This document shows positions 18,106 through 38,686 of a DNA stretch of 64,000 nucleotides, piece after piece; the stretch's first letter is position 1, and every line of letters begins with the position of its first letter. Position numbers and translations under genes: made by a program. The DNA is from an uncultured virus (IMG/VR IMGVR_UViG_3300037297_000328) (lineage: Duplodnaviria > Heunggongvirae > Uroviricota > Caudoviricetes): the IMG/VR virus record IMGVR_UViG_3300037297_000328. The stretch is one strand, 5' to 3'. The notes beneath the pieces are model-generated. The model did no database searches, was not told the origin of the DNA, and worked only from the letters and a program-made list of their open reading frames with translations.

Positions 18106-18236
18106 TGCTAACGGTACTTGTGTAAATTTCAGTGCCATTATAGCCGATAAACTAATTTAAAAGTAAAATATTATGAATAAGCAAATAATTATCAAAAAGT
18201 ATGAAGGCAAGGCATTGAATTTACATAATGTTAGTT
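18106..18236 (-). repeat. attC-like site A1
   Basis: tgctAAC ggtacttg TGTAAATTTCAGTGCC...GGCATTGAATTTACA taat GTTagtt. Confidence 0.8.
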
Positions 18237-18487
18237 GCCGTAAATTTCAAGGTGAATTAATTGGAAGAAAAGATATTGACGGAACACCAATTAAAGAAGG
18301 TGATATTGTCAAAGTATATGATAAAATTGAGTGGGGTGGAATTGTTACATATAACGAAAAAGCCTGTGGTTTTTGTTTTGATGAAGAAGATATTGGTGAA
18401 TATTCTTTTGCGTGGGGTTGGGGTGAATCTCAGGAATCACATCCTGAAGAAAGTTGGAAAGTTGTTGGCTCTATTTATGGCAACTAA
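18173..18487 (+). CDS. YopX-like protein (cassette gene)
   Basis: IGRKDIDGTPIKEGDIV...KVVGSIY; start inside A1, stop in TAAC core. Confidence 0.75.
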   Translation: MNKQIIIKKYEGKALNLHNVSCRKFQGELIGRKDIDGTPIKEGDIVKVYDKIEWGGIVTYNEKACGFCFDEEDIGEYSFAWGWGESQESHPEESWKVVGSIYGN

Positions 18488-18599
18488 CATCGAGTATAAC
18501 AAACGTTTAAAACTGACTTAGAATTGAAAAATAGAATTAAATAATAACCACTTACCAAGCAACAACGAACTGATAAATGTTTGTTATATATTGTTAGGC
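18482..18599 (-). repeat. attC-like site A2
   Basis: aactAAC atcgag TATAACAAACGTTT...AAATGTTTGTTATA tatt GTTaggc. Confidence 0.8.
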
Positions 18600-18632
18600 T
18601 TTCGTTTTGTGCGGTGGGATAAAACTAAGATT

Positions 18633-18944
18633 ATGGATGTAGCAGAATTTATTACAAAAAAAATTAAAATACATTCTAAATGTCCTGAATGTAAAAAAAG
18701 AAAATTAGTAGAAGTGCATAGTACAAGTATTGATGCTTTTTATGATGAAAAAGGAAACATTAAAGACACCGTATGGTTCTTTCTAAATATTGATATTGTA
18801 TGTAAAAACAAAAAATGTAAATATAGAAGGTGTTTGGCAAGTGATAATGCTGGTAGTGAAAGTATAAAAGAAATAATGAAAAGTAAATATAAAGATACTA
18901 ATACTGGTATAATGCTTAGACGTGCGTTGGCAAATGAAGCCTAA
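18633..18944 (+). CDS. Cys-rich cassette protein
   Basis: CPEC...CKNKKC; stop in TAAC core. Confidence 0.6.
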   Translation: MDVAEFITKKIKIHSKCPECKKRKLVEVHSTSIDAFYDEKGNIKDTVWFFLNIDIVCKNKKCKYRRCLASDNAGSESIKEIMKSKYKDTNTGIMLRRALANEA

Positions 18945-18998
18945 CGGTACTTGTGTAAATTTCAGTGCCATTATAGCCGATAAACTAATTTAAAAGTA
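18941..18998. repeat. 58-bp exact copy of 18108-18165 (truncated attC-like site)
   Basis: ctaacggtacttgtgtaaatttcagtgccattatagccgataaactaatttaaaagta occurs twice. Confidence 0.9.
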
Positions 18999-19072
18999 TG
19001 GATGATAAAGGTAGGTAAAAAAGAAGCAGGAAGGATGCTTGACGATAAAATATATAACGAATATCCAAATTT

Positions 19073-20689
19073 ATGAAAAAATACTACAGCAAAATTAAGG
19101 TTGATAAATATGAAAGTATGCAAACCCTTGATTGGTATGCTACAAATATTTATCATCCAACGCAGCAGGACGAAGACGGAAAATTTAAAAAAGGGGCCTT
19201 GCGATTACGCGATACGCACCGCGAAATGTTTTCGGCATTGCTGGTGTTGCTTATTACGAAAACAATTTCCAGAAGAAATAAAATTAATGAATATAGCGAT
19301 AAATATATTCCTTATAATATAGAGAAAGGGTTGGAACTAAAAGTTCAACCCTACGAAATTAAGGCCATTATTACCAGGGGGCTTAAGAATGCAATAAGTC
19401 TTCAGACGACAAAAAACAGGATGGATAGGCTTGAAGAGTTAGGGGTTATTTCACGAAGATGGATCCGGAGCGAAGGAGTATTTTCCATCCTGTTTAATCC
19501 CCGGTTTTTAACAATAAAATGCGGAGAATCAGGAAAATTAATAAAGACCAATGATTTTGAAAATAACTCAGAATCAGTAGTATACAAAAGTAAAAATGAA
19601 AATTTAATAAATACTACTAAATATAAAAATAAAATAATACAGGATGAACCTGTTAACAAAAGGAATGTGCATTCGCACATTAATAATTCTTTAAAACCAA
19701 AACATCTTAAAAACCAAAACAAAACAGTGCAGAATAATTCTTTTGGTTCAACCAAAAATACAGATACTCCTCATGAACCCACCATTGCGGTTGAACGTAG
19801 TAATAGTATAACCAATGAAAAATTATGCCCGGAACTAGAGTCTTACAAGAAAAAAGCCGTAAATAAATTTTATGAGAAGTTTATTATGGCATTTTGGCAG
19901 CATTTGACCTCAATGTATTTAATTACACAGGCTCCAAGGCAAACATTGCACTATGTGGAGCAGGCTTATCAATCATTAATGACTGATGACTATTATTTTG
20001 GCGGATGCACCACAGAAAAACAGATAAATTATCAGTTAAACAAATTATTAAAGGCATTAAAAAGCACTATTAACCTGGTGAACGCCAGGAAAAAAGAAAA
20101 TACACGGTGGACAATGGATCACGTATATCCAAATCAATTTCTTTGTTTGCCGCCGGAAAAGGGTAAAATGCGTTTTAAAAATGCATTGCTGCATATCGAG
20201 GAATTTATGGCAATACATGATGAAATGGATATGCTTATTGAAAAACAGATGCAAAAATCGAGGGATAAAAAGAAAAAAAGCAGATATAATTATATCATTT
20301 CTCAAATTATAGCATGGATTATGCTAAATGCAAAAGAAAAAACGGTTTCACTTATTCGACAAGCAGGAGAATATCTGCGAGATATTCACCCAGAATTAAG
20401 CATGAAGCTACACACGGATTTTAACAATCCGTACCTTGTTAAAAAAATTATAAATGCGCATAAAACATTTGATTACAAGCTTATTAATGAGTGTTTTACT
20501 ACGCAAGCCCAAATTCAGGAAGAAATAAATAAACTATTGCCAAAAATGCAACAGTTAATTAGGCAAAATCGATTAACTATTAGTCCTAAAATGTTGATTC
20601 ATTTCAAAATCAGAGGTGATGAAATGAAACCAATCCCTAAAAAATATAACAAATATACACTAAACTTAATCAACAGGTTTTTACGTTAA
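19073..20689 (+). CDS. putative replication initiator / winged-helix protein
   Basis: ISLQTTKNRMDRLEELGVISRR wHTH-like segment, N/K-rich linker, helical C-terminus. Confidence 0.45.
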   Translation: MKKYYSKIKVDKYESMQTLDWYATNIYHPTQQDEDGKFKKGALRLRDTHREMFSALLVLLITKTISRRNKINEYSDKYIPYNIEKGLELKVQPYEIKAIITRGLKNAISLQTTKNRMDRLEELGVISRRWIRSEGVFSILFNPRFLTIKCGESGKLIKTNDFENNSESVVYKSKNENLINTTKYKNKIIQDEPVNKRNVHSHINNSLKPKHLKNQNKTVQNNSFGSTKNTDTPHEPTIAVERSNSITNEKLCPELESYKKKAVNKFYEKFIMAFWQHLTSMYLITQAPRQTLHYVEQAYQSLMTDDYYFGGCTTEKQINYQLNKLLKALKSTINLVNARKKENTRWTMDHVYPNQFLCLPPEKGKMRFKNALLHIEEFMAIHDEMDMLIEKQMQKSRDKKKKSRYNYIISQIIAWIMLNAKEKTVSLIRQAGEYLRDIHPELSMKLHTDFNNPYLVKKIINAHKTFDYKLINECFTTQAQIQEEINKLLPKMQQLIRQNRLTISPKMLIHFKIRGDEMKPIPKKYNKYTLNLINRFLR

Positions 20690-20789
20690 AAAAAGATAAA
20701 ATTATGGATATAATTTACAGAACAATAGGTTTTATTATTGTTCTGATTGCAAAACCTATATACTACCTTGTACGAAAAATATTTAAAAA

Positions 20790-21104
20790 ATGGAAAGACG
20801 AATAATTCATATTGACGAAATGGTGCAAATCTGCGGATATTTCACCACTGAAACTACTGTAAATAACGGCTATGGATGTAAACATCCCGACCAAGAAGAA
20901 CAAGATGAAGATTTATATACTGGAAGGCAACATGGCAAATGCTATGCATTCAATTGTCCACTTGCTCCAGAAGCAGATTTGCAGGACATGAAAGAATTGG
21001 ATCAGGAATTATATGATGAATGGAAGAATGAAGAATACGATCCTACCGAAATGGGCGGTAATTATTTGGTAGTTGATGAGAGTGTTTTGAGAAATGCATT
21101 TTAA
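20790..21104 (+). CDS. Cys-containing hypothetical protein
   Basis: CGYF...NNGYGCKHP...GKCYAFNCPLA; stop in TAAC. Confidence 0.65.
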   Translation: MERRIIHIDEMVQICGYFTTETTVNNGYGCKHPDQEEQDEDLYTGRQHGKCYAFNCPLAPEADLQDMKELDQELYDEWKNEEYDPTEMGGNYLVVDESVLRNAF

Positions 21105-21179
21105 CTCTGAGTTAGACAGCTTTTAAATGCTATTTAACGGTTTGGCTAAGAAGCGTATAGGCAACGTAATACTTAATAA

Positions 21180-21410
21180 ATGGAAAGAATAATAGAATTT
21201 TTGACAAAAAACGGATACAAAGAAGAAACAGAAAGAGGAGCCGAATACAGAAGTTTCTTTAAAGATGGATTAAGCTCCATTGATGTAAATAATGATGAAA
21301 TAGTATTCATTGGGGATAAAGGCGACTGGCTTCATATACCTGTGAATTACTATGCTTTGATTGGCGCATTATTACACCACAGGCAATTGGCGACTAATTA
21401 TGTAGCCTAA
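21180..21410 (+). CDS. cassette hypothetical protein
   Basis: Flanked by taggcaacgtaat / attatgtagcctaac. Confidence 0.65.
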   Translation: MERIIEFLTKNGYKEETERGAEYRSFFKDGLSSIDVNNDEIVFIGDKGDWLHIPVNYYALIGALLHHRQLATNYVA

Positions 21411-21457
21411 CGGTGATAATAAACCGTCGTTTTAATGCGGTTTATTATGTGTTACCG
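21405..21457 (-). repeat. minimal attC-like site A4
   Basis: gcctAAC ggtg ATAATAAACCG tcgttttaatg CGGTTTATTAT gt GTTaccg. Confidence 0.85.
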
Positions 21458-21492
21458 GCTGACACGGATTATTAACAACAAAAGATTATTAA

Positions 21493-22332
21493 ATGAACGG
21501 ACTTAGCAATAACAGTTTTTTGAGCGTTGGCAAAAACGGCTTTGCCGAACTTACACACGGTTCACTTTTTAGCGGTATTGGTGGATTTGAGGAAGGTTCA
21601 GAGCTGGCAGGAATAAAGACTATTTGGAATTGTGAACTTGAAGATTACCAAAGTAAAATATTAAAGCAGAATTACAATGATAGCAAACAATATAGAGATA
21701 TTACAGAGGCAGAAATCACCGAAAGAGTTAGCATTATTAGTGGAGGCTTTCCGTGCCAAGACATTAGCGTTGCGGGAAAAATGGAAGGTATCAAAGGAAA
21801 GCGCAGTGGGCTTTGGAGTGAGATGTTTAGAATTATTCGGAACATTAGACCTTACTACGTCATCATTGAAAACTCGCCAGCTTTGCTTATTCGAGGATTT
21901 GAACAATTCTTATGCGACCTTTCCGAAATCGGGTATAATGCAGAATGGCAAGTGCTTTCAAACATCGCTTTTGGATACCCACACAAAAGAGAAAGATTAT
22001 ACGCTATTGCCTACGCCAACGAAATCGGATTACAAAGCGACATTTGCACAGATAGAGGCTTTAACTCGATATTTAGAAAGTGGACACCAAATCAAAATGA
22101 TGGATATTCTTTGTCAAAAAGGATTCACGAAATCGGAGCGTGTACAGATATTCGAAATGGTGATGGGTTTCAATCCTGGACACACAGAGTTGGGAGCATA
22201 GGAAATGCAGTAAACCCAACACTTGCCTACTATTTATTTGAATGTATTAAATATCATTTTTTAAAAAGGAGGGAAGAAAAAACTGTTATTGCGGACTTAC
22301 AGCAGATAACTCGATTAAATGTACCGGCGTAG
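21493..22332 (+). CDS. C5 cytosine DNA methyltransferase, alpha polypeptide (cassette gene)
   Basis: LFSGIGG, GGFPCQD, ENS, RER, GNAV; motif IX absent. Confidence 0.92.
   Translation: MNGLSNNSFLSVGKNGFAELTHGSLFSGIGGFEEGSELAGIKTIWNCELEDYQSKILKQNYNDSKQYRDITEAEITERVSIISGGFPCQDISVAGKMEGIKGKRSGLWSEMFRIIRNIRPYYVIIENSPALLIRGFEQFLCDLSEIGYNAEWQVLSNIAFGYPHKRERLYAIAYANEIGLQSDICTDRGFNSIFRKWTPNQNDGYSLSKRIHEIGACTDIRNGDGFQSWTHRVGSIGNAVNPTLAYYLFECIKYHFLKRREEKTVIADLQQITRLNVPA
21677..22201 (+). CDS. overprinted beta polypeptide of the C5 methyltransferase (M.EcoHK31I-like)
   Basis: 174 aa alternative frame ending FEMVMGFNPGHT (motif IX-like). Confidence 0.75.
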   Translation: MIANNIEILQRQKSPKELALLVEAFRAKTLALREKWKVSKESAVGFGVRCLELFGTLDLTTSSLKTRQLCLFEDLNNSYATFPKSGIMQNGKCFQTSLLDTHTKEKDYTLLPTPTKSDYKATFAQIEALTRYLESGHQIKMMDILCQKGFTKSERVQIFEMVMGFNPGHTELGA

Positions 22333-22339
22333 TGTTTGC

Positions 22340-22472
22340 CGGTAACGTTGAGCGTATGAGCCTGTTGGCGTGTTAATTAGAATTACAAACTTCAAAAAAC
22401 AGATATAAAATGAGTAAAGAAAATAAAGCACAAGATACCACTAAGCCGATGGCGTATGACGCATTGTTACCT
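22340..22472 (-). repeat. attC-like site A5
   Basis: Minus strand: AAC aatgc GTCATACG...CTCATAC gctcaac GTT, with an extra base in the first L box. Confidence 0.8.
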
Positions 22473-22784
22473 GCCGTTATTTTAGACAACGAAGGATATC
22501 CAACTGATGAGTTTTTAGAATTTATTAGAAACTATACACATGAAACAATGCCAATACTTGATTTTATTGAAATATTGTGCGATGGGTGGTATCATGGAAA
22601 TTGGGGATATAAGCTCCATCGAAAGTATGCAGGTAAGAGAAAGTTTGAATTACATACAGGTGGATGGAGTGGTAACGAAGATACAATATCTGCACTTATA
22701 AGTAACATTTGGCTTACTCATTTTAAGATGAAATACGTGCGGTGGGAGACAGGGGGACACTACTACTTTGAAATTACTTGCTAA
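22410..22784 (+). CDS. cassette hypothetical protein
   Basis: LHTGGWSGNE..I...GGHYYF; start inside A5. Confidence 0.75.
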   Translation: MSKENKAQDTTKPMAYDALLPAVILDNEGYPTDEFLEFIRNYTHETMPILDFIEILCDGWYHGNWGYKLHRKYAGKRKFELHTGGWSGNEDTISALISNIWLTHFKMKYVRWETGGHYYFEITC

Positions 22785-22788
22785 TGGC

Positions 22789-22918
22789 AGGTAACAGTTG
22801 ACAATATGAAATGTATGGGATTAAAAGCGGTATCCTATCCCGATACATTAATGATAATTAAAGGTAGTACCGTACAATTTGGCACTAACACCAGTATATT
22901 TTATATTGTGTGCTAGGC
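22789..22918 (-). repeat. attC-like site A6 (core mutated, GCT for GTT)
   Basis: AATATGAAATGTATGG...CCAGTATATTTTATATT arms. Confidence 0.7.
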
Positions 22919-22936
22919 ACTTTAAAAATTACGGGT

Positions 22937-23134
22937 ATGAAAATAGAAGTATCACAAGATTGGTTTAAGAAAGTGTTAATTGAAAAATTAAAAGAAATTG
23001 ACAAGAAATTGATTAAAGCAGATGAAATGACATACTCAGAAAAAGAATTAAGTGAGGATAAGATACACGATGTGTGGAGTGAAATTAGAGATTCTAATTT
23101 AGAGATAGAAGAACTTATTGAGGCATTGGAGTAA
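22937..23134 (+). CDS. small acidic cassette protein
   Basis: Flanked by 21-bp near-perfect complementary ends. Confidence 0.6.
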   Translation: MKIEVSQDWFKKVLIEKLKEIDKKLIKADEMTYSEKELSEDKIHDVWSEIRDSNLEIEELIEALE

Positions 23135-23144
23135 TTTTTATTGT

Positions 23145-23275
23145 GCCTAACGGACAGCGGTATGCACTGGCCGGATTAACTGGCAGAAAGTTTAATTAAA
23201 TGACAAACATTATGAATACATCGAAACCTAAATTAAAAGTACAAACCCCGGCTTGCGTATTACCGCATATTAGCG
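23145..23275 (-). repeat. attC-like site A7
   Basis: GCGGTATGCA.TGGCCGG...CCGGCTTGCGTATTACCGC; core ATT for GTT. Confidence 0.75.
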
Positions 23276-23562
23276 GTATGTTTAAAGTGGTGGCAAGCGA
23301 TGGGGAGTTTATATTTCCAAAACTATGCCCTTATTGCGGTGGTGATTTATTTTATAGAGGTACTGGATGGATTGAAGATGAGCGAGGGCAGTGGAAAGTT
23401 GATATGATGGATTGCGAATGTTCAACCATGCCAGACTTTGATGATGAAGAATGGGACGACTGGATGAATAACCATAGTGAAATGCCTTATGTGCATCAGT
23501 TACCAGTTGATCAGGCAGTAATGAAATGGATTAATGCGCGGTTTCGCTTTGCGATGGATTAA
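23200..23562 (+). CDS. zinc-ribbon cassette protein
   Basis: CPYCGG; start inside A7. Confidence 0.65.
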   Translation: MTNIMNTSKPKLKVQTPACVLPHISGMFKVVASDGEFIFPKLCPYCGGDLFYRGTGWIEDERGQWKVDMMDCECSTMPDFDDEEWDDWMNNHSEMPYVHQLPVDQAVMKWINARFRFAMD

Positions 23563-23567
23563 ATTAC

Positions 23568-23700: not shown

Positions 23701-23873
23701 AGCGTTTTAATATTGACATTCCTTATACTTGCGGGACATTAAAGCGAATAGAATTTAAAACCACAGGGAACGATAAGGTAACTCATTCTTGGTTAGTCCT
23801 GCATGGATTAAAAACTGGAGCTGGTAAAGAATCATTGACCATACACTTAGGCAGGGCTTTAAATGCTCTATAA
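23640..23873 (+). CDS. cassette hypothetical protein
   Basis: Start inside A8; stop in terminal TAAC. Confidence 0.65.
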   Translation: MNTIKNINEEKGNAILPLVIERFNIDIPYTCGTLKRIEFKTTGNDKVTHSWLVLHGLKTGAGKESLTIHLGRALNAL

Positions 23874-23910
23874 CTACTATATATAAGATTAACTTTTTAA
23901 ACAACTTAAT

Positions 23911-24084
23911 ATGAACAAGAAAGGAATATCAACTTTAGGAAAATTTAAAAATAATCTTAAACTTAAAAATTATTCTGATAATACTATTAATATATATATA
24001 CACTATATCTCAGGATTTATTTTAAGCTTTAATAAGCCTGCTCTTCATATAACTATTTTAGATATTAGACAATACAATGCCTAA
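23911..24084 (+). pseudogene. truncated tyrosine integrase N-terminal (SAM-like) domain, IntI-like
   Basis: MNKKGISTLGKFKNNLKLKNYSDNTINIYIHYISGFILSFNKPALHITILDIRQYNA*, matching the L.L.NYS..T...Y.....F pattern. Confidence 0.7.
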
Positions 24085-25690: not shown

Positions 25691-25770
25691 AATAAACGGT
25701 CGGGTATTGGCTTTCGTTGCCTATGCTCAAATAACTACGAATGATTATTAAACGCTTAAAAATTAAATAT

Positions 25771-26103
25771 ATGAACACATTTTCACAAATAGTACAAGAC
25801 AATGAAGTTAATACCTTGTTACCTGCCGTATCATTTCAATTTTTATATCGAAAGAATAATAAGGAATTTTCACAGGAATTTGTTTCAAAGAAAAAAACAC
25901 TAATTGAAGCGATAGATGATTTTTTAACTCGGAAAGAGAATTTGTACGATATAGATGAAGAAGTTAAAGTTACCTATCAAGATGGTAAGCAAGAAATGGT
26001 ACAAGTTGATGCTCGCCAAGATTGGGATTCAAGTTGGTATTTTGTTCACGAAAATAATATTATTTGTGGCAATGGATATGCCTGTCAGCATAATGGCAGC
26101 TAA
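25771..26103 (+). CDS. cassette hypothetical protein
   Basis: Start inside attC loop; stop in TAAC. Confidence 0.6.
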   Translation: MNTFSQIVQDNEVNTLLPAVSFQFLYRKNNKEFSQEFVSKKKTLIEAIDDFLTRKENLYDIDEEVKVTYQDGKQEMVQVDARQDWDSSWYFVHENNIICGNGYACQHNGS

Positions 26104-27381: not shown

Positions 27382-27474
27382 CTCTTTGCGTCCTTAAATG
27401 GGCGGTAACGTGTTGTGTATTCGGTCATTGCTGTTTTGAAAGATAGTACAAATTTAGATTAAAGAACATAAGAT

Positions 27475-28089
27475 ATGAATATAAATACAGTTACAAAAAA
27501 GCCACAAGGCAATTCCGTATTACACGGTGTTAGTGGCAGTTATTCCTATGATAACCGATACTTGCATAGGTTTTTTAAAATGAATACCGCACCGCTGTTA
27601 ATGAGCATGAAAGTATTTCCGAATATTAAAGAAATAACCGAGAGTGTGGGAGCATTTGTGGCAATACAAGACCACTTAATTGATAAATATGTAAGCCGAA
27701 CAGATGAAGTTGATGTATATGTAGTAGGTGACGGACACAGCCCACGTACAGGTGCGTTGATAGCTTGCCTTACCAAATGGAATGTTAAAAGCATAGACCC
27801 ACAAATGCGTGGGAAACAATGGAATATTAAACGCTTAGAAACATATAAAAACAAAGCAGAAGAATTAAGCTTTGAAGGTAACAATAATAGTGCGGTGGTT
27901 GTTTGCGTACACTCCCATGCTAAAATAAGCGACTGCTTTAAAATGCTGCACGGATATTCGGAAATACATTTGGTTAATATACCCTGCTGCTTTAAAGCCG
28001 ATATCGATAAAAAACCTAATGTAAGTTACACCGATTTTGGCATACAAAGTGAAAAGCAAAAAGTTGACATCTACTTTAATTGCCACTAA
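27475..28089 (+). CDS. SAM-dependent methyltransferase-like cassette protein
   Basis: VYVVGDGHSPRTG, SIDP, HSH, IPCC. Confidence 0.6.
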   Translation: MNINTVTKKPQGNSVLHGVSGSYSYDNRYLHRFFKMNTAPLLMSMKVFPNIKEITESVGAFVAIQDHLIDKYVSRTDEVDVYVVGDGHSPRTGALIACLTKWNVKSIDPQMRGKQWNIKRLETYKNKAEELSFEGNNNSAVVVCVHSHAKISDCFKMLHGYSEIHLVNIPCCFKADIDKKPNVSYTDFGIQSEKQKVDIYFNCH

Positions 28090-28714: not shown

Positions 28715-29005
28715 ATTTATTTGTTTATAACTACTATATATAACAACCTTTAATTATTGTATTGATAATCAATAAAATAAAAATATCAACTTTAGGAAAA
28801 TATAAAAAATATCCTAAACTTTAAAATTATTTTATGGATATAATAAATAAAATAAAATACGGAGTAATTGTTGTTGAATATAATAAACGTGCAAAATCAA
28901 AATATCCTTATGTTTTTGAATGGATAGAAGGGAAGAAACTTTTGGCTTGTACAGCAGATTGGGGATTTAATAGTCTTGATGATTTTGTTTCATTTTACAA
29001 TGAGG

Positions 29006-30793: not shown

Positions 30794-30798
30794 AATTA

Positions 30799-31809: not shown

Positions 31810-31870
31810 ATTTTAAAATTTTATCGTTATTAAATCGTGTTTTTACTAATCATGTACCCATCCGTTAGGT

Positions 31871-32122
31871 TTAATTTGTTTTAAGTTGAACAAGCCCCGT
31901 CTTTTGTTTAGGCAGTAAAGTTTCCCAGCAACTACCTAACCCATACTCTTTACCAAACTTAAAACAAACTCCGCTCACATCTTTCCATATCATTAGTTGG
32001 TATTTTGTACCACCGTGCTTTCTATTATTCCACAAGGTTATTGTCTTATCGCTAAACCTAACAATGTATATAAAAACATTGCTAAGTGTGTACCAATTTT
32101 TACGTTTATATCTTTTATTCAT
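31871..32122 (-). CDS. cassette hypothetical protein
   Basis: Start inside attC loop. Confidence 0.6.
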   Translation of the reverse strand: MNKRYKRKNWYTLSNVFIYIVRFSDKTITLWNNRKHGGTKYQLMIWKDVSGVCFKFGKEYGLGSCWETLLPKQKTGLVQLKTN

Positions 32123-32179
32123 AATTGTAAGTGTTTTAAAGTTATTACTCTTAATCCGCAACGTTTCATACACTCAACG

Positions 32180-32467
32180 TTAGCAACCATTAAAAGACCG
32201 CCACAACTCGACAAACTTTTCTCTTTTCATTTGCCTTAATTCTCTATTGTCAGCATACTTTCTTTCGTGATAGATTTCAATTTCACTACCGCCAGTGAAG
32301 TAAACTGAATATCTCAACCAAGAACTATCACCACCTACTTTTCCAACTCTTTCCACTTTGCGTAAATCAATCGTGTCTCCGCAAATGTCGATAATAGGAT
32401 TAACGGCTGCTAACAAACGGTTAGCATCATTGCCGTTTTCGTGGTTAATTGAATTTTTGTTTTCCAT
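32180..32467 (-). CDS. cassette hypothetical protein
   Basis: Start inside attC loop; stop in core. Confidence 0.65.
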   Translation of the reverse strand: MENKNSINHENGNDANRLLAAVNPIIDICGDTIDLRKVERVGKVGGDSSWLRYSVYFTGGSEIEIYHERKYADNRELRQMKREKFVELWRSFNGC

Positions 32468-32629
32468 ATCAAATTTTGTTTTTAAGTGAATGTTTTGTGT
32501 TCCAAAGTCGGCAACGAACGCCAACCGCCAAAACGTTAACTACAAGCGGGTTTGGTGGCTCGTATTTAAGTTCCTGCGTATGCGAAGAAAAAAAATAAAA
32601 GCCCCCCGCTTTAGGTTTTTCAAACCCAT

Positions 32630-33418
32630 TTATATAAAAACAACATTTCCCTGTTTATGGTGTACATTATCAGAATCTAATATTTTCATCCATTCTTCTT
32701 TTGTTGCCGTGTAGCTTGCAAAAGTTGAGGCATTTTTAGCACACCATTCACAAAGTTCTTCAAATGTTTCAAATACTGGTGAACTTGGCGAACCTTCGCT
32801 TGTTGTTTCCCATAATTGAAATCCTTCGCCTGTTGGTGGTTCGTAATTTTCCCAATTTTCATATAATTCTTTTGCTCTTGAGTGTTGCCATTTTTCGCCT
32901 TCACCGTTACATTTAGGGCATGAAGATGATTTGCCTTCTCTTTTTAATCTTGCTTTTATACAATACCAAGCATTACTCGAATCATGTCCCATTCCTTTTA
33001 AATTCCACTCATTTACTTCTTTTGGTGTTGGAATATAACCGTTATTAAATGGAAGCCAGGAATTACCGCCATCGGCAATTTTTTGTTTTACTATTGCTTT
33101 TTGTTCGTCATTAATTGGAACTCTTGTGAAATCCCAAAGCCTATCAGCGTCTAAAAGTGCTTTTACATCATCTTCATTAAGGTTGTTATTCCAAGCGTTC
33201 GCATTGTATCTCCAACCTTCTCTGAAAGGATTAAGCTTATAATTTTCTTCTGTGTGATAGCCATACCACTCATCATGTAATTTATCATACTCTTTCGAGT
33301 ATCCGGTTCCTTTACAGTGTTTGCATTCATGCCTTGCGTGAGGGTTTAAATAACCACTCCAAATTTTTCCTATTTCCCAATCAAAATCTATTGGTACTCG
33401 TTTCATTGTTCGTCCCAT
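32630..33418 (-). CDS. cassette protein with CxxCxGxG zinc motifs
   Basis: CKHCKGTG, CPKCNGEG, EPPTGEGFQLWETTSEGSP.SPVF. Confidence 0.8.
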   Translation of the reverse strand: MGRTMKRVPIDFDWEIGKIWSGYLNPHARHECKHCKGTGYSKEYDKLHDEWYGYHTEENYKLNPFREGWRYNANAWNNNLNEDDVKALLDADRLWDFTRVPINDEQKAIVKQKIADGGNSWLPFNNGYIPTPKEVNEWNLKGMGHDSSNAWYCIKARLKREGKSSSCPKCNGEGEKWQHSRAKELYENWENYEPPTGEGFQLWETTSEGSPSSPVFETFEELCEWCAKNASTFASYTATKEEWMKILDSDNVHHKQGNVVFI

Positions 33419-33613
33419 GTTGTTTTTATATTTTAAATTTTCCCACCCTTCTTTTTATTTTTTTAGTGCTTCGTACAAGCGGCGGTGAGTAATTAATCCG
33501 CCAGTAGTTAACACGTTACATATTGCAAAAGCCAATTGGCGTTAGTGCGTTGAATCGGTCGATTGTGGTTGGCTTTCGACAACATGTAACCGGTCCGTTA
33601 GGCACAATAAAAA

Positions 33614-33871
33614 TTAAATAGCGTTGTGCAGTGCTTTTTCAATTTCTTCCTTACTGTAACCAAGCGCAATAAGTTCCTCGTGTTCCACAAAGTGCCTCAT
33701 TTCCCATTTACCGCAATGCTTACATTTTCGACTTACTTTAAATGTATCGCTCACGTATGTAATGTGTACGCCTATTTCTAATATTTCCCATTCGTGTGGC
33801 ATTGCTACCTCATATTCCCAAAATAGGAATCGTGCTTTGCGCTTTTCTCTTAATGGACATTTCCAGCTCAT
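33614..33871 (-). CDS. cassette protein with CxxC motif
   Basis: HEW...RKCKHCGK. Confidence 0.6.
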   Translation of the reverse strand: MSWKCPLREKRKARFLFWEYEVAMPHEWEILEIGVHITYVSDTFKVSRKCKHCGKWEMRHFVEHEELIALGYSKEEIEKALHNAI

Positions 33872-34004
33872 ATATTTAATTTTAAAAGTGCCTAATATGA
33901 TAAAACAAAGATTTTTGTATTACGCCTAGTTTTTTAAGTTTTTCAGCATAATTTAAATTGCAGCATTGTTTCTCTATATACATCTTATTAATTTTATTTC
34001 GTTT

Positions 34005-34238
34005 TTAGAACTCTTTCATTTTACGGTATTGCTTCAATTTTGCTATGGTCATATTTTGTTGTATAATTGTTTTGCTTAATTTTTGTGCTTGCCTTTGTTG
34101 GTTATAATCACCAGCAAATAATGATGCCTGCAAATTTTCATTAGTTAAAACAATTTTTTCTAAACCTGCTATTCCTTTATCCCACCCAACTTTTTCGCAC
34201 ATATCAATCAACATCTGAAAATCTGCATTTTTTTTCAT
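34005..34238 (-). CDS. hypothetical protein
   Basis: 77 aa ORF. Confidence 0.5.
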   Translation of the reverse strand: MKKNADFQMLIDMCEKVGWDKGIAGLEKIVLTNENLQASLFAGDYNQQRQAQKLSKTIIQQNMTIAKLKQYRKMKEF

Positions 34239-34263
34239 TATAATAATATTTAATAAGTTTTAA

Positions 34264-34854
34264 TCAATTACTATGTAATATTTTCACATTACCATGTAAT
34301 GCACCAGTATAACGCAAATGCGGCCTGTAATTCCAGTTTTTTGGCAAGACATAAGGGTGAAAATTCAAATCATGCATTGCATATGCAAGGTAGGGCTGAT
34401 CGTTTTCGCTGCTTTCAATATACTTAGTCAATAAGATTGACCAATACTCAAAAATCATTTCTGCTCTTTTTCTTTCGCTAAAAAATAATACACCACAATT
34501 ATATTGAGGCAAATCAACCGGCATTTTTGTGATTAAATCGTTTTTGTGCTGCTTTAACGCATCATATGCTGAACTTGCGGGAGCAATACAGCAGGCCAGT
34601 CCGTATTTTTCAGCCATTTCAAAGCCATAATCAATATTGTCCATAATTACGGTATCTGCATCCAGGTATAATGTAGTGTCAAAAGAAGATTTATAATACA
34701 AATCAATCCTTTTTCTAAAACCTTTATATTCGCTATTATCCCATACTACATCATAATCGTAGCCAAATTTTTTAGCGCTTTCAATCGAGCGTTCCAATAA
34801 TTTCTTTTGTTTAGGATCATTGCCCCACATATAATATAAAATTCCCCGGCTCAT
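34264..34854 (-). CDS. GT-A fold glycosyltransferase (GT8-like)
   Basis: TLYLDADT, YNCGVLFF, DQPYL, LPKNWN, KILH. Confidence 0.85.
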   Translation of the reverse strand: MSRGILYYMWGNDPKQKKLLERSIESAKKFGYDYDVVWDNSEYKGFRKRIDLYYKSSFDTTLYLDADTVIMDNIDYGFEMAEKYGLACCIAPASSAYDALKQHKNDLITKMPVDLPQYNCGVLFFSERKRAEMIFEYWSILLTKYIESSENDQPYLAYAMHDLNFHPYVLPKNWNYRPHLRYTGALHGNVKILHSN

Positions 34855-35420
34855 TCTTCTATTTTTACATAGGTTAAAAAAGTCTGCCCATTATTAACAA
34901 CTCCAGGCTGACTGCCATCGTAATGCAGTATTTCGTATTTTTCAATAAAATCGGGCAAAAAATGTTCTTCTTTTATTTCTTCCAGGGTAGAGCGTGGAGG
35001 ATTTTTAAACAAATGTAGTTTGTCTTTTGGCACATTATCATCAAATACAATATGCTTAAATCCTGAATAATAAGCCCACATTAACCTTGAAACCTGGCTG
35101 TAGTGATCGTCAAAGAAAATTAAGTCATTTATTTTTGCGTGATATTTATAACTATGTTCGTTAATATCATGTTCATGGTAATGTATTGATTTATCCTTGA
35201 ACATAAGATTAGAGTAATTAATATCGTAGGAATGAATTGTTGTATCGGGATTAAGTTTGCGGAATAGCCATAGACTATTTCCTTTCCATGTACCCGATTC
35301 TATAATTAATTTCGGTTTTAATTTTTGACAAATGTTGGCAAGGTGTCTTAATTTCCATGGCGCGCATGAGCCAATGTTTTGTTTATCAGGTCTGGTGTTT
35401 ATAATTTCTTCTACATTCAT
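34851..35420 (-). CDS. class I SAM methyltransferase-like protein
   Basis: IIESGTWKGNS, FFDDH, VFDDN. Confidence 0.75.
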   Translation of the reverse strand: MNVEEIINTRPDKQNIGSCAPWKLRHLANICQKLKPKLIIESGTWKGNSLWLFRKLNPDTTIHSYDINYSNLMFKDKSIHYHEHDINEHSYKYHAKINDLIFFDDHYSQVSRLMWAYYSGFKHIVFDDNVPKDKLHLFKNPPRSTLEEIKEEHFLPDFIEKYEILHYDGSQPGVVNNGQTFLTYVKIEE

Positions 35421-35992
35421 TTTTGTATAGTTATAATTATGTCATCAATTCTTTTACTATCGTTTGTCCAATCAAATACATTAATATTTCTCTTAGGTCC
35501 TTCATATAAAAATAATAGTTTGTCAAGATTGTTTTTATTGACATCTTCAATAATTAATATTCCATCCTCATATAAAAATTTTGGAAAATTATTAATTGCA
35601 AAGATTTGCGATTTCAGGGTGTGAGGACCATCATCAATAATAATATCAAATAAAGACTTATTCTTCCATTTGTTTTTGTATGAATAGGCATCATTATAAT
35701 ACATTTTCAGCCTTGGATAATCTATTTTATTTGCATTTTTCCATTCGTCTTTAATGTTAATACCAAAAATAGATGAATCTCGTAAATAATCGTGCATAAG
35801 TCTTACCGACCCACCATATTTTATTCCTATTTCGAGAACTTTTAATGGTTGCCAATCTTGTATCATTGAAAAAAACTCATCGTAAAAACCAGCATAGCTA
35901 TGTCCTTGTGGCAATTTGGTCCACGAACTTTTACCAAATTTATCGGTATCGTACAATACAGGGTTTGTTTGTTGTAATTCGCTAATTTTCAT
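35417..35992 (-). CDS. class I SAM (sugar O-)methyltransferase
   Basis: TDK...HSY, VLEIGI..GGS, FDIIIDDGPH, IIEDV. Confidence 0.88.
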   Translation of the reverse strand: MKISELQQTNPVLYDTDKFGKSSWTKLPQGHSYAGFYDEFFSMIQDWQPLKVLEIGIKYGGSVRLMHDYLRDSSIFGINIKDEWKNANKIDYPRLKMYYNDAYSYKNKWKNKSLFDIIIDDGPHTLKSQIFAINNFPKFLYEDGILIIEDVNKNNLDKLLFLYEGPKRNINVFDWTNDSKRIDDIIITIQK

Positions 35993-36009
35993 TATTTAAA
36001 ATTTTAAAT

Positions 36010-36621
36010 CTATAATTTTTTCATATAAAATGCATCCCCCCAAATTCCTCCAGCCCAATTAGTCTCTACACGCTCAAAACCAAAAATGGCTAAAAATGAA
36101 TCTATCTGCTGCACTTGTGCGCAATTTTCATAGACTTCATCCCGGTTTACTTCTGCCATAATGTAATCAATGTATTGCAGCGTGTTTTTTGCCCCTTTAA
36201 ATACTTCAAGCTCGTAACCCTGCACATCAATATTTATGAAATTATACAATGAAGCGTTAAATAAAATATTATCCAACTTATTGATCAATACTTTTTTACT
36301 ATCCTCAAATTTTACATTAGGGTGGCGGGTTAGGTGTTTTTTAGGTTTTAATATAGAGGAAGAAGCGCCGCCATTTGAGGCAACATTAAAATTAATAAGT
36401 CCTTTTTTGTTTCCAAGCGCAACATTGTAACACAATGCATTATTACGGACAACAGTAGTTAATAGCTTAAATGTTTCCGGATCGGGTTCAAAATACATGA
36501 TATTTTTTATTCCCGAAGCAATGTATAATTTATGTTCGGTGCCTATATGAGCGCCAATATGTATTACGCCTTTTATTTTAAGGCTGTATTTGCGCATTAA
36601 TTCTGCCCAGTCTAGTATCAT
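36010..36621 (-). CDS. FkbM-family methyltransferase
   Basis: HIGAHIG, FEP, SSSIL, IDVQGYELEV.KGA. Confidence 0.93.
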   Translation of the reverse strand: MILDWAELMRKYSLKIKGVIHIGAHIGTEHKLYIASGIKNIMYFEPDPETFKLLTTVVRNNALCYNVALGNKKGLINFNVASNGGASSSILKPKKHLTRHPNVKFEDSKKVLINKLDNILFNASLYNFINIDVQGYELEVFKGAKNTLQYIDYIMAEVNRDEVYENCAQVQQIDSFLAIFGFERVETNWAGGIWGDAFYMKKL

Positions 36622-36622
36622 T

Positions 36623-36919
36623 TTATTTATTTTTCAACCACCATTCAAGTTCTTTCTCTATATCAAAATTTCCTGCAAATCCGTAACGAAAAGCACAGTG
36701 AAATGTAAAGTCTTTTAATTGTTTTCTTGTGAACATCGGTTCGTTTACTTTCTTTACCCATTTATTTTTTTCCCAGCAATTGATAGTAAAAGGAGAATAT
36801 GACTCTCTTCCAAGTTGTTTAGACCATGGAGTGTAAAAGAAACTTATATCTTTCTCATAGTTCTCTAATATAAGTCCTTTTTTCAGCCATCCATGTTTTT
36901 TTGTCACAATGTATTTCAT
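36623..36919 (-). CDS. hypothetical protein
   Basis: 98 aa ORF. Confidence 0.5.
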   Translation of the reverse strand: MKYIVTKKHGWLKKGLILENYEKDISFFYTPWSKQLGRESYSPFTINCWEKNKWVKKVNEPMFTRKQLKDFTFHCAFRYGFAGNFDIEKELEWWLKNK

Positions 36920-37262
36920 AATAGTATAATTTATACTCCAAATAATTCATAAAACGATAATTTTTTCAATTTATTAATAGCTTTTTGTAGTTTTTTTACA
37001 AAAAAAGGTTTTGAATTTAGGCAATATTCAGGCTTTTTGTATTCGTCAAAAAATGGTTCATATGGGCTTGAGAGCATTGAATTAGGAGTAAGTGTTTTCA
37101 TTTCTTCACTGTCTATTTCTCTGATTTGTACATCTTTTTCGTAGAAAATAACAGGTGCTATAATGATATATTGTTTTTTGTCTGGTAACATTTTATTTAG
37201 TTCAGCACTATTAGCGATAATTATTCGTCCGTTTTGGGCATATAATTTTAAATATGTAGTTT

Positions 37263-38099
37263 TCATCTTAATATAAAATTGGGTGGATAAAAACCTTCGC
37301 CTAAATCTTTTTCTAAAAACCAATATTTTTTAGGCGCAATGGTTATTTTGTTTTTATCTGCATTTAAAAACCCTACCCACCAACTAAATGACGAAATAGG
37401 GGAGAGGATATAATGGTCGCATTGTTGCATTAATGCAAAGTCGTTAATTGTCGTGTGTTCATAATCGGGAAATAAAAATTTATCACTTCCTTTAAAATAA
37501 TTACGGCACCATCTATAATCTTCATTATTTCTGGCGTATCGTTGCCCCCCGGTAAATATCAGAAATTTTATTTTCCTGTCTTTTAGTACTTCTTTTGCCC
37601 TGTAAAAATAAATTGGCCATTTTTCTTCATACATATTAAGTGCCGTATCGCCACGTCGCAAGTGCAGGGCAACAATTTCATACCCTTTATTTTGCTTTTT
37701 GATTTGCTGCATTTGTTTTTTTGCCCAGGTTACGAGTGGTTCTTTTAATGATAGCTCTTTACGGAGTAAATCAACATGATCCTGATAATATTGATAGTTT
37801 TGAAAAAAGCCAAGGATATCGTAACCATCTCGAATGTGATAAATAATTCCGGGAGTATAAGAAAAATTTTTGTTTCTAGCTTCAAATAGTGTTTTTTCGA
37901 TTTTATCATCAGAAGATAGAAATTCAGCAGTAATATTAAAGTTTCCTAATAAGCATTGTTGACCGTGCCAGCTATGCTGTCTGTAATCAGGTATTTTTAT
38001 TTTAAGCTCTTTTATTTGTCCAACAACAAGCAGAAAAGCATATTGAAATAGCTGATTTCCTAGTCGTCCGTATCTTCCAAGTTTTGAAAATGTAATCAT
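37263..38099 (-). CDS. GT11 alpha-1,2-fucosyltransferase
   Basis: GRLGNQLFQYA, GFFQ, HLRRGD, SSFSWW. Confidence 0.93.
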   Translation of the reverse strand: MITFSKLGRYGRLGNQLFQYAFLLVVGQIKELKIKIPDYRQHSWHGQQCLLGNFNITAEFLSSDDKIEKTLFEARNKNFSYTPGIIYHIRDGYDILGFFQNYQYYQDHVDLLRKELSLKEPLVTWAKKQMQQIKKQNKGYEIVALHLRRGDTALNMYEEKWPIYFYRAKEVLKDRKIKFLIFTGGQRYARNNEDYRWCRNYFKGSDKFLFPDYEHTTINDFALMQQCDHYILSPISSFSWWVGFLNADKNKITIAPKKYWFLEKDLGEGFYPPNFILR

Positions 38100-38239
38100 T
38101 TTTTGGTCATTAAGTCATTAATCAGAAAAAGTATTCATTTTTTTTAATATTTTTAAATTTTCCTAAAGTTGATTTTACATTATATTAATAATCAACTATT
38201 TAGAAGTTGGTGTTTATATATAATAGTTAGCAACAATGC

Positions 38240-38584
38240 CTAATACTGTTGCACTATTTCGGTATCTGGTATAATTCGAGTTTGCTTATTAGCCACCGCA
38301 CGCAAATTATAGTAGTTACTTTCTTTGTCGCTATTTAGGTGCATTGCTACCCAATATTTTTTGCCTTTATGTTCTTTAAGCCTTACCCACTTGTACATAT
38401 AATGGTGTTTTCGGCCCCTGCCTTGGTCATTAACTCCGAAGAAGTGGTACACCTTTAAAACCGCAAACTCTTTAATCTGCTTTCCTTTTTTATCAAAGTA
38501 TGGAGCTTCAGTGTCGGCACAGTTGCTAACACACGGTAAAACTCCATTACCTTTCTGTTTTTGTTGCTTAATATCTTCATTCAT
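38240..38584 (-). CDS. cassette hypothetical protein
   Basis: Start inside attC loop; YFDKKG..I....VLKVYHF. Confidence 0.7.
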   Translation of the reverse strand: MNEDIKQQKQKGNGVLPCVSNCADTEAPYFDKKGKQIKEFAVLKVYHFFGVNDQGRGRKHHYMYKWVRLKEHKGKKYWVAMHLNSDKESNYYNLRAVANKQTRIIPDTEIVQQY

Positions 38585-38686
38585 AATTCCTACTATTTTG
38601 AAAATTTATCTCTCGTATTTAAAACGGCAACGAGAGTTTACCGTCAAACGTTATTGGCAGGCTGAACGAACAGCCTGCCCATTAAG

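What the first reader, a model, noticed from the sequence alone, without database searches (positions are those of the whole stretch)
18106..38656. Cassette ORFs are inverted relative to canonical attC polarity and start inside the recombination site
Seen: the fixed 5-nt spacer and the extra L-box base always lie on the strand opposite to the genes (minus for arrays A, B, E; plus for C, D). In ten cassettes the ATG lies in the attC loop (18173, 22410, 23200, 23640, 25771, 27475, 32122, 32467, 38584, 58550). One attC arm is therefore translated into look-alike N-terminal peptides on unrelated proteins (ALNLHNVSCR, GNSVLHGVSGS, GNGVLPCVSNC, GNAILPLVIER, MAYDALLPAV, DANRLLAAV). Many stops are the TAA of the next TAAC core. 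Established: canonical cassettes have attC downstream of the ORF. Inference: here attC is at the 5' end and carries the translation start, so each cassette keeps its own start after recombination, and transcription runs toward attI, fitting phage operons rather than a Pc promoter.
Basis: partly seen in the sequence, partly recalled or inferred. Interest (0 to 1): 0.9.

Follow-up and report, generated by a model that had tools for sequence, protein, structure and literature searches.

The report
Backwards gene cassettes in a phage
This phage stores small accessory genes as swappable cassettes, each led by a folded DNA site that also holds the gene's start codon, so the layout is an integron with its genes turned round and a different, simpler recombinase.

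Summary
The repeats are real. They are a covarying TAAC...GTTA hairpin family, mostly 123-130 nt. All 18 matches in the window lie on the gene strand. I found it in 57 other loci, which are phage contigs plus a few Bacteroidota MAG contigs, and in cultured Polaribacter phages.

Nine of the ten reported in-loop ATGs are confirmed; 58550 is not. The look-alike peptides come from the translated 3' arm.

Five cassette gains, losses or moves between near-identical metagenomic contigs, and four steps among Polaribacter phage Freya isolates, all break at the sense-strand AAC core upstream of the hairpin. So a cassette is hairpin (leader, ATG, about 19 codons) + ORF + TAA.

In relatives, arrays end at an AT-rich attI-like site followed by a co-oriented Xer-like recombinase of about 270 aa. 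This enzyme lacks the insertion typical of integron integrases. The window holds only three decayed copies of that end.

The bulge geometry would by itself predict canonical polarity, so these sites are attC-like, not proven attC.

My paper searches found no description. This scan has noted the same system on other DNA before, including one note on reversed polarity.

The parts
18109..18233 (+). Hairpin element a (125 nt, TAAC..GTTA). Loop ATG at 18173 opens a 104-aa YopX-like ORF (18173-18487). The cassette ends at the TAA of TAAC 18485-18488.
   Evidence: R2 81.9 bits; table; 3' flank pairs 13/13 with the 5' flank of the next core; weak Pfam YopX match
18485..18596 (+). Weaker element b (112 nt). 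No long ORF opens from its loop.
   Evidence: R2 25.5 bits, E 0.0048; arm duplex; table
18933..18998 (+). 95% identical copy of the 5' arm and half the loop of element a (half-site)
   Evidence: repeat family D4
21408..21454 (+). Short 47-nt hairpin d leading the C5 DNA methylase cassette (ORF 21493-22332). The cassette ends at TAAC 22343-22346.
   Evidence: R2 25 bits; flank pairing 11/13; Pfam DNA_methylase 3e-42
22343..22469 (+). Element e. Loop ATG at 22410, ORF 124 aa. The cassette ends at TAAC 22792-22795.
   Evidence: R2 112.4 bits; flank pairing 12/13
23148..23271 (+). Element f, with a degenerate 3' core ATTA. Loop ATG at 23200, ORF 120 aa.
   Evidence: R2 81.2 bits
23571..23697 (+). 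Element g. Loop ATG at 23640, ORF 77 aa. The cassette ends at TAAC 23871-23874.
   Evidence: R2 106.2 bits; flank pairing 12/13
23871..24084 (+). Decayed array end 1: TAAC followed by an AT-rich attI-like stretch and a 57-aa stump of the Xer-like recombinase (its N-terminal SAM-like domain)
   Evidence: Pfam Phage_int_SAM_4, 27.0 bits, at the cut-off. The same TAAC + AT-rich motif lies upstream of intact recombinase genes in G005, G022, G024, G032 and G034, and the stump resembles their N-termini by eye. tblastn finds no intact recombinase in the window.
25694..25821 (+). Element h (5' core AAAC). Loop ATG at 25771 (or 25741), ORF 110-120 aa. The cassette ends at TAAC 26101-26104.
   Evidence: R2 98.3 bits
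26339..26462 (+). Long-class element whose ORF (PAPS reductase, 26500-27381) starts after GTTA. The cassette ends at TAAC 27406-27409.
   Evidence: R2 68.6 bits; flank pairing 11/13; Pfam PAPS_reduct 1.1e-24
27406..27532 (+). Element i. Loop ATG at 27475, ORF 204 aa. The cassette ends at TAAC 28087-28090.
   Evidence: R2 109.4 bits; flank pairing 11/13. A contig of another sample (run X3, record 22) matches the window only over 27406-28092.
28743..28850 (+). Decayed array end 2: TAAC + AT-rich attI-like stretch + a degenerate copy of the recombinase 5' end
   Evidence: repeat family D3; sequences compared
33509..33600 (-). Element n (92 nt) leading ORF 33418-32630 (262 aa). The cassette ends at TAAC 32538-32535.
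   Evidence: R2 19.4 bits, E 0.084; flank pairing 11/13
32411..32538 (-). Element l. Loop ATG at 32467, ORF 95 aa. The cassette ends at TAAC 32182-32179.
   Evidence: R2 117.6 bits; flank pairing 12/13
32059..32182 (-). Element k. Loop ATG at 32122, ORF 83 aa.
   Evidence: R2 69.7 bits
38527..38653 (-). Element m. Loop ATG at 38584, ORF 114 aa. The cassette ends at TAAC 38229-38226.
   Evidence: R2 117.1 bits; flank pairing 11/13
38874..39016 (-). Weaker element upstream of m
   Evidence: R2 32 bits, E 0.00023
38120..38229 (-). Decayed array end 3: TAAC + AT-rich attI-like stretch + a degenerate copy of the recombinase 5' end
   Evidence: sequences compared; intergenic listing

Best explanation
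The window carries several worn arrays of an integron-like gene-cassette system of Bacteroidota-type phages.

Each cassette reads, on the gene strand: C; then an imperfect hairpin (TAAC-G, a 4-5 nt bulge, an interrupted stem of about 18 bp, a loop of about 74 nt); then GTTA; then about 15 nt that pair with the cassette's own tail; then the ORF; then that tail; then TAA. In the long class, the loop supplies the leader, the ATG and about 19 codons, and the 3' arm is translated.

Cassettes are gained, lost and moved by site-specific recombination whose crossover lies at AA|C of the core upstream of the hairpin. Each gene therefore travels with its own start and its own stop.

New cassettes enter at an AT-rich attI-like site at the downstream end of the array, next to a co-oriented Xer-like tyrosine recombinase of about 270 aa.

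What is shown: the structure, the position of the crossover, and the layout of the array.

What is inferred: that this recombinase does the job, that the substrate is the folded gene-sense single strand, and that the loop ATGs are the starts actually used.

The window has no intact recombinase. Its arrays are frozen, or are served in trans.
For: Structure. There is covariation on 15 sequences and on 150. The cores are TAAC in 137 of 150 and GTTA in 145 of 150, and 119 of 150 elements are 123-130 nt long. In the 36 loci with >=2 matches, all matches lie on one strand. All 18 window matches lie on the gene strand.

Cassette ends. The 3' flank of element k pairs with the 5' flank of element k+1. 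This holds in 8 of 8 consecutive pairs in G001, read by eye. Over the wider set it holds in 19 of 87 pairs at >=10/12 Watson-Crick, against 0 of 150 for the flanks of one hairpin and 15 of 4906 random pairs. With shifts and G.T allowed it holds in 40 of 87, against 8 of 150 and 352 of 5000. Nine such pairs in the window are anchored on elements.

Crossover. Five independent polymorphisms between near-identical contigs (L154/L211, L155/L172, L156/L158, L160/L178, L180/L199) all break at the sense TAAC, with 4-7 nt shared at the junction. One cassette sits at two different array positions. It begins with T in place of C while the upstream ends read cAA and TAA, which places the exchange within or just after AA. 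Freya_1/2/5/8/10 show units U1, U2 and U3 present or absent in combinations, with every junction at AAC| directly upstream of the integrase.

Array end. The recombinase lies downstream on the same strand in G005, G024, G032 and G034, and TAAC plus an AT-rich site lies upstream of it in those four and in G022.

Starts. Of 127 long-class elements, 105 have a loop ATG opening an ORF of >=50 aa that runs through GTTA. The ATG lies a median of 70 nt after the T of TAAC.

Strand. The sense-strand arms are more stable in 134 of 144 elements, by a mean of 2.53 kcal/mol. G.T pairs number 431 against 41 A.C (143 against 41 without two near-invariant columns). This matches the bias reported for the recombined strand of attC (PMC5027507, passages).
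Against: No intact recombinase lies in the window.

No PF00589 match was found in 30 of the 38 virus records searched, or in 15 of the 20 that are >=90% complete. None was found in the 191-kb G001, which carries a dense array. So the link between enzyme and arrays rests on adjacency in a minority of records.

[quoted passage not shown] That is the opposite of where extrahelical bases sit on a canonical attC bottom strand.

The strand bias is weak on the first 15 sequences when the helix register is chosen from Watson-Crick pairs only (23 G.T against 17 A.C). The 150 matches were picked by a model trained on the sense strand. The same bias would also arise from selection on the mRNA.

No expression or proteomic data exist for the starts.

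The flank rule fails in about half of the consecutive pairs. One plausible cause is that only 150 of the 172 matches were used, so some elements between neighbours are missing.
Confidence: 0.8

Rival explanations
1. A canonical-polarity integron or CALIN. Each hairpin would belong to the ORF upstream of it, and the crossover would lie at G|TT downstream of the hairpin. The first ~19 codons of every gene would then be supplied by the preceding cassette.
For: The bulge geometry matches a canonical bottom strand on the non-coding strand. Upstream ORFs often stop in the TAAC core: 40 of 145. Only two reading frames are used across GTTA, 51 and 50 of 105, which would suit in-frame swapping.
Against: None of the junctions lies at GTT, in either the 5 metagenomic cases or the 4 Freya steps. 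All lie at the AAC core about 125 nt upstream. A related cassette in run X3 matches the window from 27406, the TAAC, and not from the GTTA.
Confidence: 0.04
2. Regulatory RNA hairpins, or mobile regulatory cassettes like the PeSL elements of T4-type phages, shuffled by homologous recombination between repeats. No dedicated site-specific enzyme would be involved.
For: The sense-strand G.U bias fits an mRNA structure. The loop holds the translation start. Partial copies of elements exist in the window: D4, D12.
Against: The hairpins on the two sides of an insertion belong to different sequence subfamilies and share only TAAC(G) at the junction. The cores are near-invariant while the stems covary. 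Each cassette's ends pair with each other, which serves no purpose in a linear mRNA. Insertions pile up at one site beside a recombinase gene. I recall PeSL from memory and did not read the paper.
Confidence: 0.07
3. Single-strand transposition by an HUH (IS200/IS605-like) enzyme or another unrecognised enzyme. The Xer-like gene would be a neighbour with a different job, for example lysogeny, as it was annotated.
For: Most records with arrays lack any tyrosine recombinase. The authors read the cultured phages' 'integrase' as a lysogeny marker (PMC8776804, passages). The single-strand hairpin plus short cleavage motif resembles IS200/IS605 ends; this resemblance is recalled, not tested.
Against: No Y1 transposase (PF01797) was found in 5 of 5 array-bearing records. 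The recombinase gene follows the last core within about 70-130 nt in five metagenomic records and in Freya. Cassette number varies exactly at that junction. The window keeps three decayed copies of 'array end + recombinase 5' end'.
Confidence: 0.07

Closest known systems
Integrons (IntI integrase, attI, attC-bounded cassettes), especially sedentary chromosomal integrons with uniform attC sites
   Same: One-stranded arrays of single-gene cassettes separated by imperfect hairpins with conserved AAC/GTT cores. The crossover is at AA|C. Each cassette's ends pair with each other, as expected for a circular intermediate. New cassettes enter at a distinct site beside a tyrosine recombinase gene. The better-folding strand carries the extra G.T pairs. 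If the whole platform is flipped, the recombinase gene points away from the array as intI does.
   Different: The ORFs lie on the opposite strand relative to the site, so the hairpin precedes its ORF and transcription runs toward the attI-like end; a Pc-type promoter there could not drive them. The hairpin loop usually encodes the leader, the ATG and about 19 codons. The recombinase is about 270 aa, closest to archaeal XerA-type models, and lacks about 46 residues where IntI4 carries its insertion. The large bulge sits on the crossover arm. Pairing of cassette ends extends about 15 nt beyond the 4-nt core. The hosts are phages.
CALINs and integrons reported in phage genomes (Qi et al. 2023, PMC9892861; passages read via find)
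   Same: Clusters of cassette recombination sites in phage genomes, many without an integrase.
   Different: That work concerns canonical attC sites found with integron tools. Its text holds no occurrence of 'Bacteroid', 'Flavobacter', 'Xer' or 'start codon'. I could not run IntegronFinder's attC model on these sites.
Xer/dif recombination and Xer-exploiting mobile elements
   Same: The recombinase scores best against NF040815 (XerA-type / integron integrase), then against XerC and XerD. It aligns end to end with Pyrococcus XerA-like 4A8E.
   Different: All scores are under the curated cut-offs (159-207 against 220). The sites are many, hairpin-shaped and variable in sequence, rather than one 28-bp dif-like duplex site. 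The dif description is recalled, not tested.
PeSL mobile regulatory cassettes of T4-type phages (recalled; not read here)
   Same: Repeated intergenic stem-loops that flank small accessory genes in hyperplastic phage regions.
   Different: Here the breakpoints are confined to a 4-7 nt core, and a recombinase and an entry site go with the arrays.

Membership tests
Integron | IntI-type tyrosine recombinase with the extra (I2) insertion | tested here: not met
   The array-linked recombinases of relatives score 138-168 bits on TIGR02249 (cut-off 265) and 86-107 on NF011946 (cut-off 435). Against IntI4 (2A3V) they align in two blocks, query 16-178 with 13-178 and query 210-260 with 256-306, so about 46 residues of IntI4 have no counterpart. 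The window holds only a 57-aa stump.
Integron | attC: imperfect hairpin with conserved AAC...GTT cores and otherwise free sequence | tested here: met
   TAAC in 137/150 and GTTA in 145/150. The stems covary: 95.3% paired against 69.8% in shuffles and 15 of 23 pairs compensatory on 15 sequences.
Integron | Unpaired bases on the arm opposite the cleaved AAC of the recombined strand | tested here: not met
   A 4-5 nt bulge directly follows the AAC-G at which the junctions map, in 138/150; the opposite side has 1 nt. The rule is taken from PMC5027507 (passages).
Integron | Crossover within the AAC/GTT triplet | tested here: met
   All junctions lie there. Cassette X places the exchange within or just after AA.
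Integron | Cassette = ORF followed by its attC, with the ORF on the non-recombined (top) strand | tested here: not met
   The units that come and go begin with the hairpin and end with ...TAA. In 105 of 127 long elements the ORF start lies in the hairpin loop.
Integron | attI entry site beside the integrase gene | tested here: met
   This is met in relatives. L178 has 1167 nt more than L160, inserted exactly at the TAAC + AT-rich site upstream of the recombinase. The Freya units all enter at AAC| before the integrase. The window has three decayed copies.
Integron | Single-stranded folded substrate and replicative resolution | not testable with these tools
   Only indirect evidence exists: the strand bias in stability and in G.T pairs.
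CALIN (attC cluster without integrase) | Two or more attC sites close together with no integron integrase nearby | tested here: inconclusive
   The window has arrays and no intact recombinase. Whether the sites pass the standard attC model could not be tested, because that model is not on hand.
IS200/IS605-type single-strand transposons | Y1 HUH transposase | tested here: not met
   PF01797 was found in 0 of 5 array-bearing records; the control genomes gave matches in 6 of 14.
Rfam RNA families | Match to a curated RNA family | tested here: not met
   There were 0 matches at gathering score over the window. Over 17500-39500 there was one chance-level match at E 0.88.

The most novel reading that the evidence does not exclude
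Bacteroidota phages carry their own lineage of integron. A small Xer-like recombinase without the I2 insertion recombines folded hairpins on the coding strand. The hairpin doubles as a portable translation-initiation module (leader, ATG, about 19 codons), so every captured gene is ready to be translated wherever it lands in a phage operon. If so, single-strand hairpin recombination does not need the IntI-specific insertion, and phages have a dedicated engine for swapping accessory genes. Cassettes in this window encode a C5 DNA methylase and a PAPS reductase.
Probability: 0.5. Interest if true: 0.9.

Novelty: new variant of a known kind. Interest (0 to 1): 0.8.

Why it matters
Integrons are known as bacterial platforms whose genes point away from the entry site and depend on one promoter. 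Here the same recombination logic runs backwards, and each cassette brings its own start.

The sites occur in 57 of the loci I fetched and in cultured Polaribacter phages whose 'integrase' was read as a sign of lysogeny (PMC8776804).

Three consequences follow.

- A common cause of phage genome mosaicism could be tested directly. Freya isolates from one host already differ only by whole cassettes.
- The view that the I2 insertion made hairpin recombination possible could be tested against a natural enzyme that lacks it. I know that view only from the abstract start of PMC7790495 in the listing.
- Gene callers and lifestyle predictors may misread these regions.

Tried and rejected
- A naive TAAC...GTTA arm-alignment scan did not beat shuffles. 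A loose motif scan was only about 1.5 times shuffles.
- Cofold ranking was swamped by folds within single arms.
- Megablast of 17800-29000 against the phage collection gave no match.
- No whole genome is held for the window.
- The primase protein found no relatives in viral contigs.
- The first pattern scan gave mostly chance matches. nhmmer found real elements in 5 of the loci held (L012, L016, L040, L045, L106), which come from 4 contigs.
- Model R1 came out without base pairs, because RNAalifold found none on A3, and was not used.
- The generic search for terminal inverted repeats in the window is at background level: 56 pairs against 42-65 in shuffles. Only pairs anchored on elements were used.
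- Of the 80 genome-contig loci searched, 68 had no element, being chance pattern matches.
- No RNA holder was listed for the window.
- The runs laid were contigs only. Several short-sided joints in X3, at under 95% likeness, were not interpreted.
- R2 gave only one match at E<0.001 in Freya_10, at 32.7 bits, so Freya's hairpins are mostly beyond this model. The Freya junctions rest on sequence comparison, not on the model.
- Paper searches found no description of this system.
- I did not test promoters in the loops.
- I did not fold the recombinase.
Full report
**What the window is.** It reads as a phage of the Bacteroidota type. G+C is about 33%. It carries endolysins, tail-like proteins, a primase, a terminase-like protein and many methyltransferases and glycosyltransferases, plus DUF4248 and a BspA-type repeat. 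Genes lie in five one-stranded blocks. No whole genome is held for it. Megablast of 17800-29000 against the phage collection found nothing.

**The observation.** On the gene strand, nine of the ten quoted ATGs have the same surroundings. Upstream lies a TAAC followed by G and a G+C-rich arm. The leader is A-rich, and the ATG sits at a fixed place. About 19 codons later comes the complementary arm, ending in GTTA. The nine whole elements align end to end (61% mean column identity), so the leader and the first codons are part of the repeat.
- The quoted peptides are the translated 3' arms.
- A covariance model built from 15 elements with a stem that I derived scores the nine at 69.7-117.6 bits. 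It finds a tenth strong element at 26333-26478 and eight weaker ones. All 18 are on the strand of the neighbouring genes.
- Nothing is found at 58550.
- No Rfam family matches.

**Is the hairpin real?**
- On the 15 sequences, 84.6% of cells pair, against 72.6% in shuffles and 34-54% when the partner is slid. Fifteen of 23 pairs show changes on both sides.
- On 150 matches from other DNA the figures are 95.3% against 69.8%, with the caveat that this alignment is fitted to the model.
- The cores are TAAC in 137 of 150 and GTTA in 145 of 150.
- 119 of 150 elements measure 123-130 nt from T to A, 17 measure 84-92, and 3 measure 48.

**Spread.** A pattern taken from the arms found 74 viral loci. 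The model found 209 matches at E<=0.001 in the 70 of those loci that I searched.
- In the 150 best matches of a second search, 57 loci are represented. In the 36 loci with two or more matches, all matches lie on one strand.
- Of 80 bacterial or archaeal genome loci searched, 12 hold elements. Most of these 12 are MAG contigs labelled Bacteroidota: Paludibacteraceae, Chitinophagales, Flavobacterium, Muribaculaceae, Bacteroidales.
- Polaribacter phage Leef_1 has three matches (62, 28 and 27 bits) just upstream of its 'integrase'.

**Cassette logic.** The ~15 nt after GTTA of one element are the reverse complement of the ~15 nt before TAAC of the next element. They are not the complement of the flank of their own hairpin.
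- This holds in 8 of 8 neighbouring pairs in the G001 array, read by eye.
- In the wider set, 19 of 87 neighbouring pairs reach >=10 of 12 Watson-Crick pairs, against 0 of 150 for same-hairpin flanks and 15 of 4906 random pairs.
- With small shifts and G.T allowed, the counts are 40 of 87 against 8 of 150 and 352 of 5000.
- In the window, nine such pairs are anchored on elements. The unanchored search is at background level and was not used.
- So each gene segment has ends that would close into one long hairpin in a circle.

**Where the crossover lies.** An all-against-all BLAST of the loci gave eight rows, which make five independent cases once duplicate contigs are merged.
- In four cases one contig has an extra unit of 186 to 1167 nt. 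In the fifth, a ~375-nt cassette sits at two different places in the array.
- In every case the shared sequence runs up to TAAC and diverges right after it. The extra unit begins with a hairpin arm and ends in ...TAAC. Only 4-7 nt are shared at the junction.
- The hairpins on the two sides are of different subfamilies, which rules out homologous exchange between repeats.
- The moved cassette begins with T instead of C, while the upstream ends read TAA in one place and cAA in the other. The exchange therefore lies within or just after AA.
- In L178, 1167 nt are inserted exactly between the last TAAC and an AT-rich stretch that precedes a recombinase gene.
- The same holds in cultured phages. 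Freya_1, 2, 5, 8 and 10 differ by three units (U1, U2, U3), present in combinations directly upstream of the integrase, and every junction is at AAC|.
- A contig of another sample matches the window only over 27406-28092, that is from the TAAC of element i to the next TAAC.
- No junction lies at the GTT core.

**The enzyme and the array end.** A ~270-aa tyrosine recombinase lies just downstream of the array, on the same strand, in G005, G024, G032 and G034. G022 has one behind an array of its own.
- Upstream of each lies TAAC followed by an AT-rich stretch.
- The protein scores best on the XerA-type model NF040815 (159-207 bits, cut-off 220), then on XerC, XerD and integron integrase models, all under their cut-offs.
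- It aligns end to end with a Pyrococcus Xer-like structure, but only in two blocks with IntI4, which has about 46 more residues between them.
- The window has no intact copy. It does have three decayed copies of 'TAAC + AT-rich stretch + recombinase 5' end', at 23871, 28743 and 38229. The first still encodes 57 residues of the N-terminal domain.
- Most array-bearing records have no tyrosine recombinase at all: 30 of 38 virus records, 15 of the 20 that are >=90% complete, and the 191-kb G001.
- No HUH Y1 transposase was found in 5 of 5 records.

**Starts.** Of 127 unique long-class elements with enough downstream DNA, 105 have a loop ATG that opens an ORF of >=50 aa through the 3' arm.
- The ATG lies a median of 70 nt after the T of TAAC and 57 nt before the end of GTTA. 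Two frames are used about equally (51 and 50, against 4 in the third).
- In the short class, 16 of 17 ORFs start after GTTA.
- One element outside the window encodes a lipoprotein-like signal peptide across the arm (read by eye). This suggests that pairing, rather than the peptide, is what is kept.
- The core TAA is the stop of a frame of >=50 codons in 40 of 145 elements.

**Which strand?** The sense-strand arms are the more stable in 12 of 13 window elements and in 134 of 144 elements overall, by a mean of 2.53 kcal/mol. G.T pairs number 431 against 41 A.C, or 143 against 41 without two near-invariant columns. This is the bias reported for the recombined strand of attC sites: more G:T mispairs and about 2.1 kcal/mol (PMC5027507, passages). 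It agrees with a crossover at 5'-AA|C-3' on the gene strand.
Three cautions apply.
- On the first 15 sequences the bias nearly vanishes if the helix register is chosen from Watson-Crick pairs alone (23 against 17, compared with 53 against 10).
- The 150 matches were chosen by a sense-strand model.
- Selection on the mRNA would give the same bias.

The bulge geometry points the other way. The 4-5 unpaired nt follow the crossover core on the same arm, whereas canonical sites carry their unpaired bases on the opposite arm.

**Comparison with what is known.** If the platform is flipped it has the integron layout: recombinase gene pointing away, entry site, then cassettes each ending in a hairpin. 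The ORFs, however, are on the other strand. The enzyme lacks the IntI insertion. The loop is coding, and the hosts are phages.
- Qi et al. 2023 (PMC9892861) report canonical integrons and CALINs in phages. Their text holds none of the words Bacteroid, Flavobacter, Xer or start codon.
- Bartlau et al. (PMC8776804) read the Freya, Leef and Ingeline integrases as signs of a temperate lifestyle. The words cassette and integron do not occur in their text.
- Six searches of the paper library found no description. The library is not complete.
- This scan has noted the system on other DNA at least eight times, and reversed polarity once. Those notes agree with this report but were read after my reading was formed, and they are not independent evidence.

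**Verdict.** The system is a new variant of the integron kind, and it can be tested directly in cultured phages.

Noticed in passing
window 49725-50168: Eleven in-register copies of a 45-nt-period repeat (60-83% identity to the reference copy) lie inside the 347-aa ORF 49560-50603. This would make a repetitive protein segment of unknown kind.
   Followed up: no
window 578-605, 53128-53175, 53349-53396, 55688-55735: Intergenic runs of CTAA(n)TTCTAAT-type short repeats recur between genes of the plus-strand blocks. They could be a promoter or terminator motif.
   Followed up: no
window 58815-58847, 59490-59522, 21102-21134: Three copies of a ~33-nt unit that starts with TAAC, forms a very short stem-loop ending in GTT, and follows an ORF stop with the usual ATTG...TAAC flank. 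They may be minimal or decayed members of the hairpin family. Model R2 does not score them.
   Followed up: partly
window 27533-27577 and 28158-28202: An 84% identical 45-nt stretch lies just after the GTTA of element i (inside ORF 27475-28089) and again in the next intergenic region. This looks like a partial duplication of a cassette's 5' end.
   Followed up: no
window 17945-18105: A short ORF directly upstream of the first element looks, from recall of that family's motifs only, like the joined N- and C-terminal scraps of a larger phage gene. It may be an internal deletion at the edge of the array.
   Followed up: no
window 29006-44357 (minus strand): A long run of glycosyltransferase, sulfotransferase and methyltransferase genes lies between and beside the cassette arrays. 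It looks like a surface-sugar modification block carried by the phage.
   Followed up: no
L350/L352 and L349 (Polaribacter phages Freya_10 and Leef_1): In GenBank these small genes are annotated as ordinary hypothetical proteins and the recombinase as 'integrase'. In Freya, an HNH endonuclease gene directly follows the recombinase gene.
   Followed up: partly
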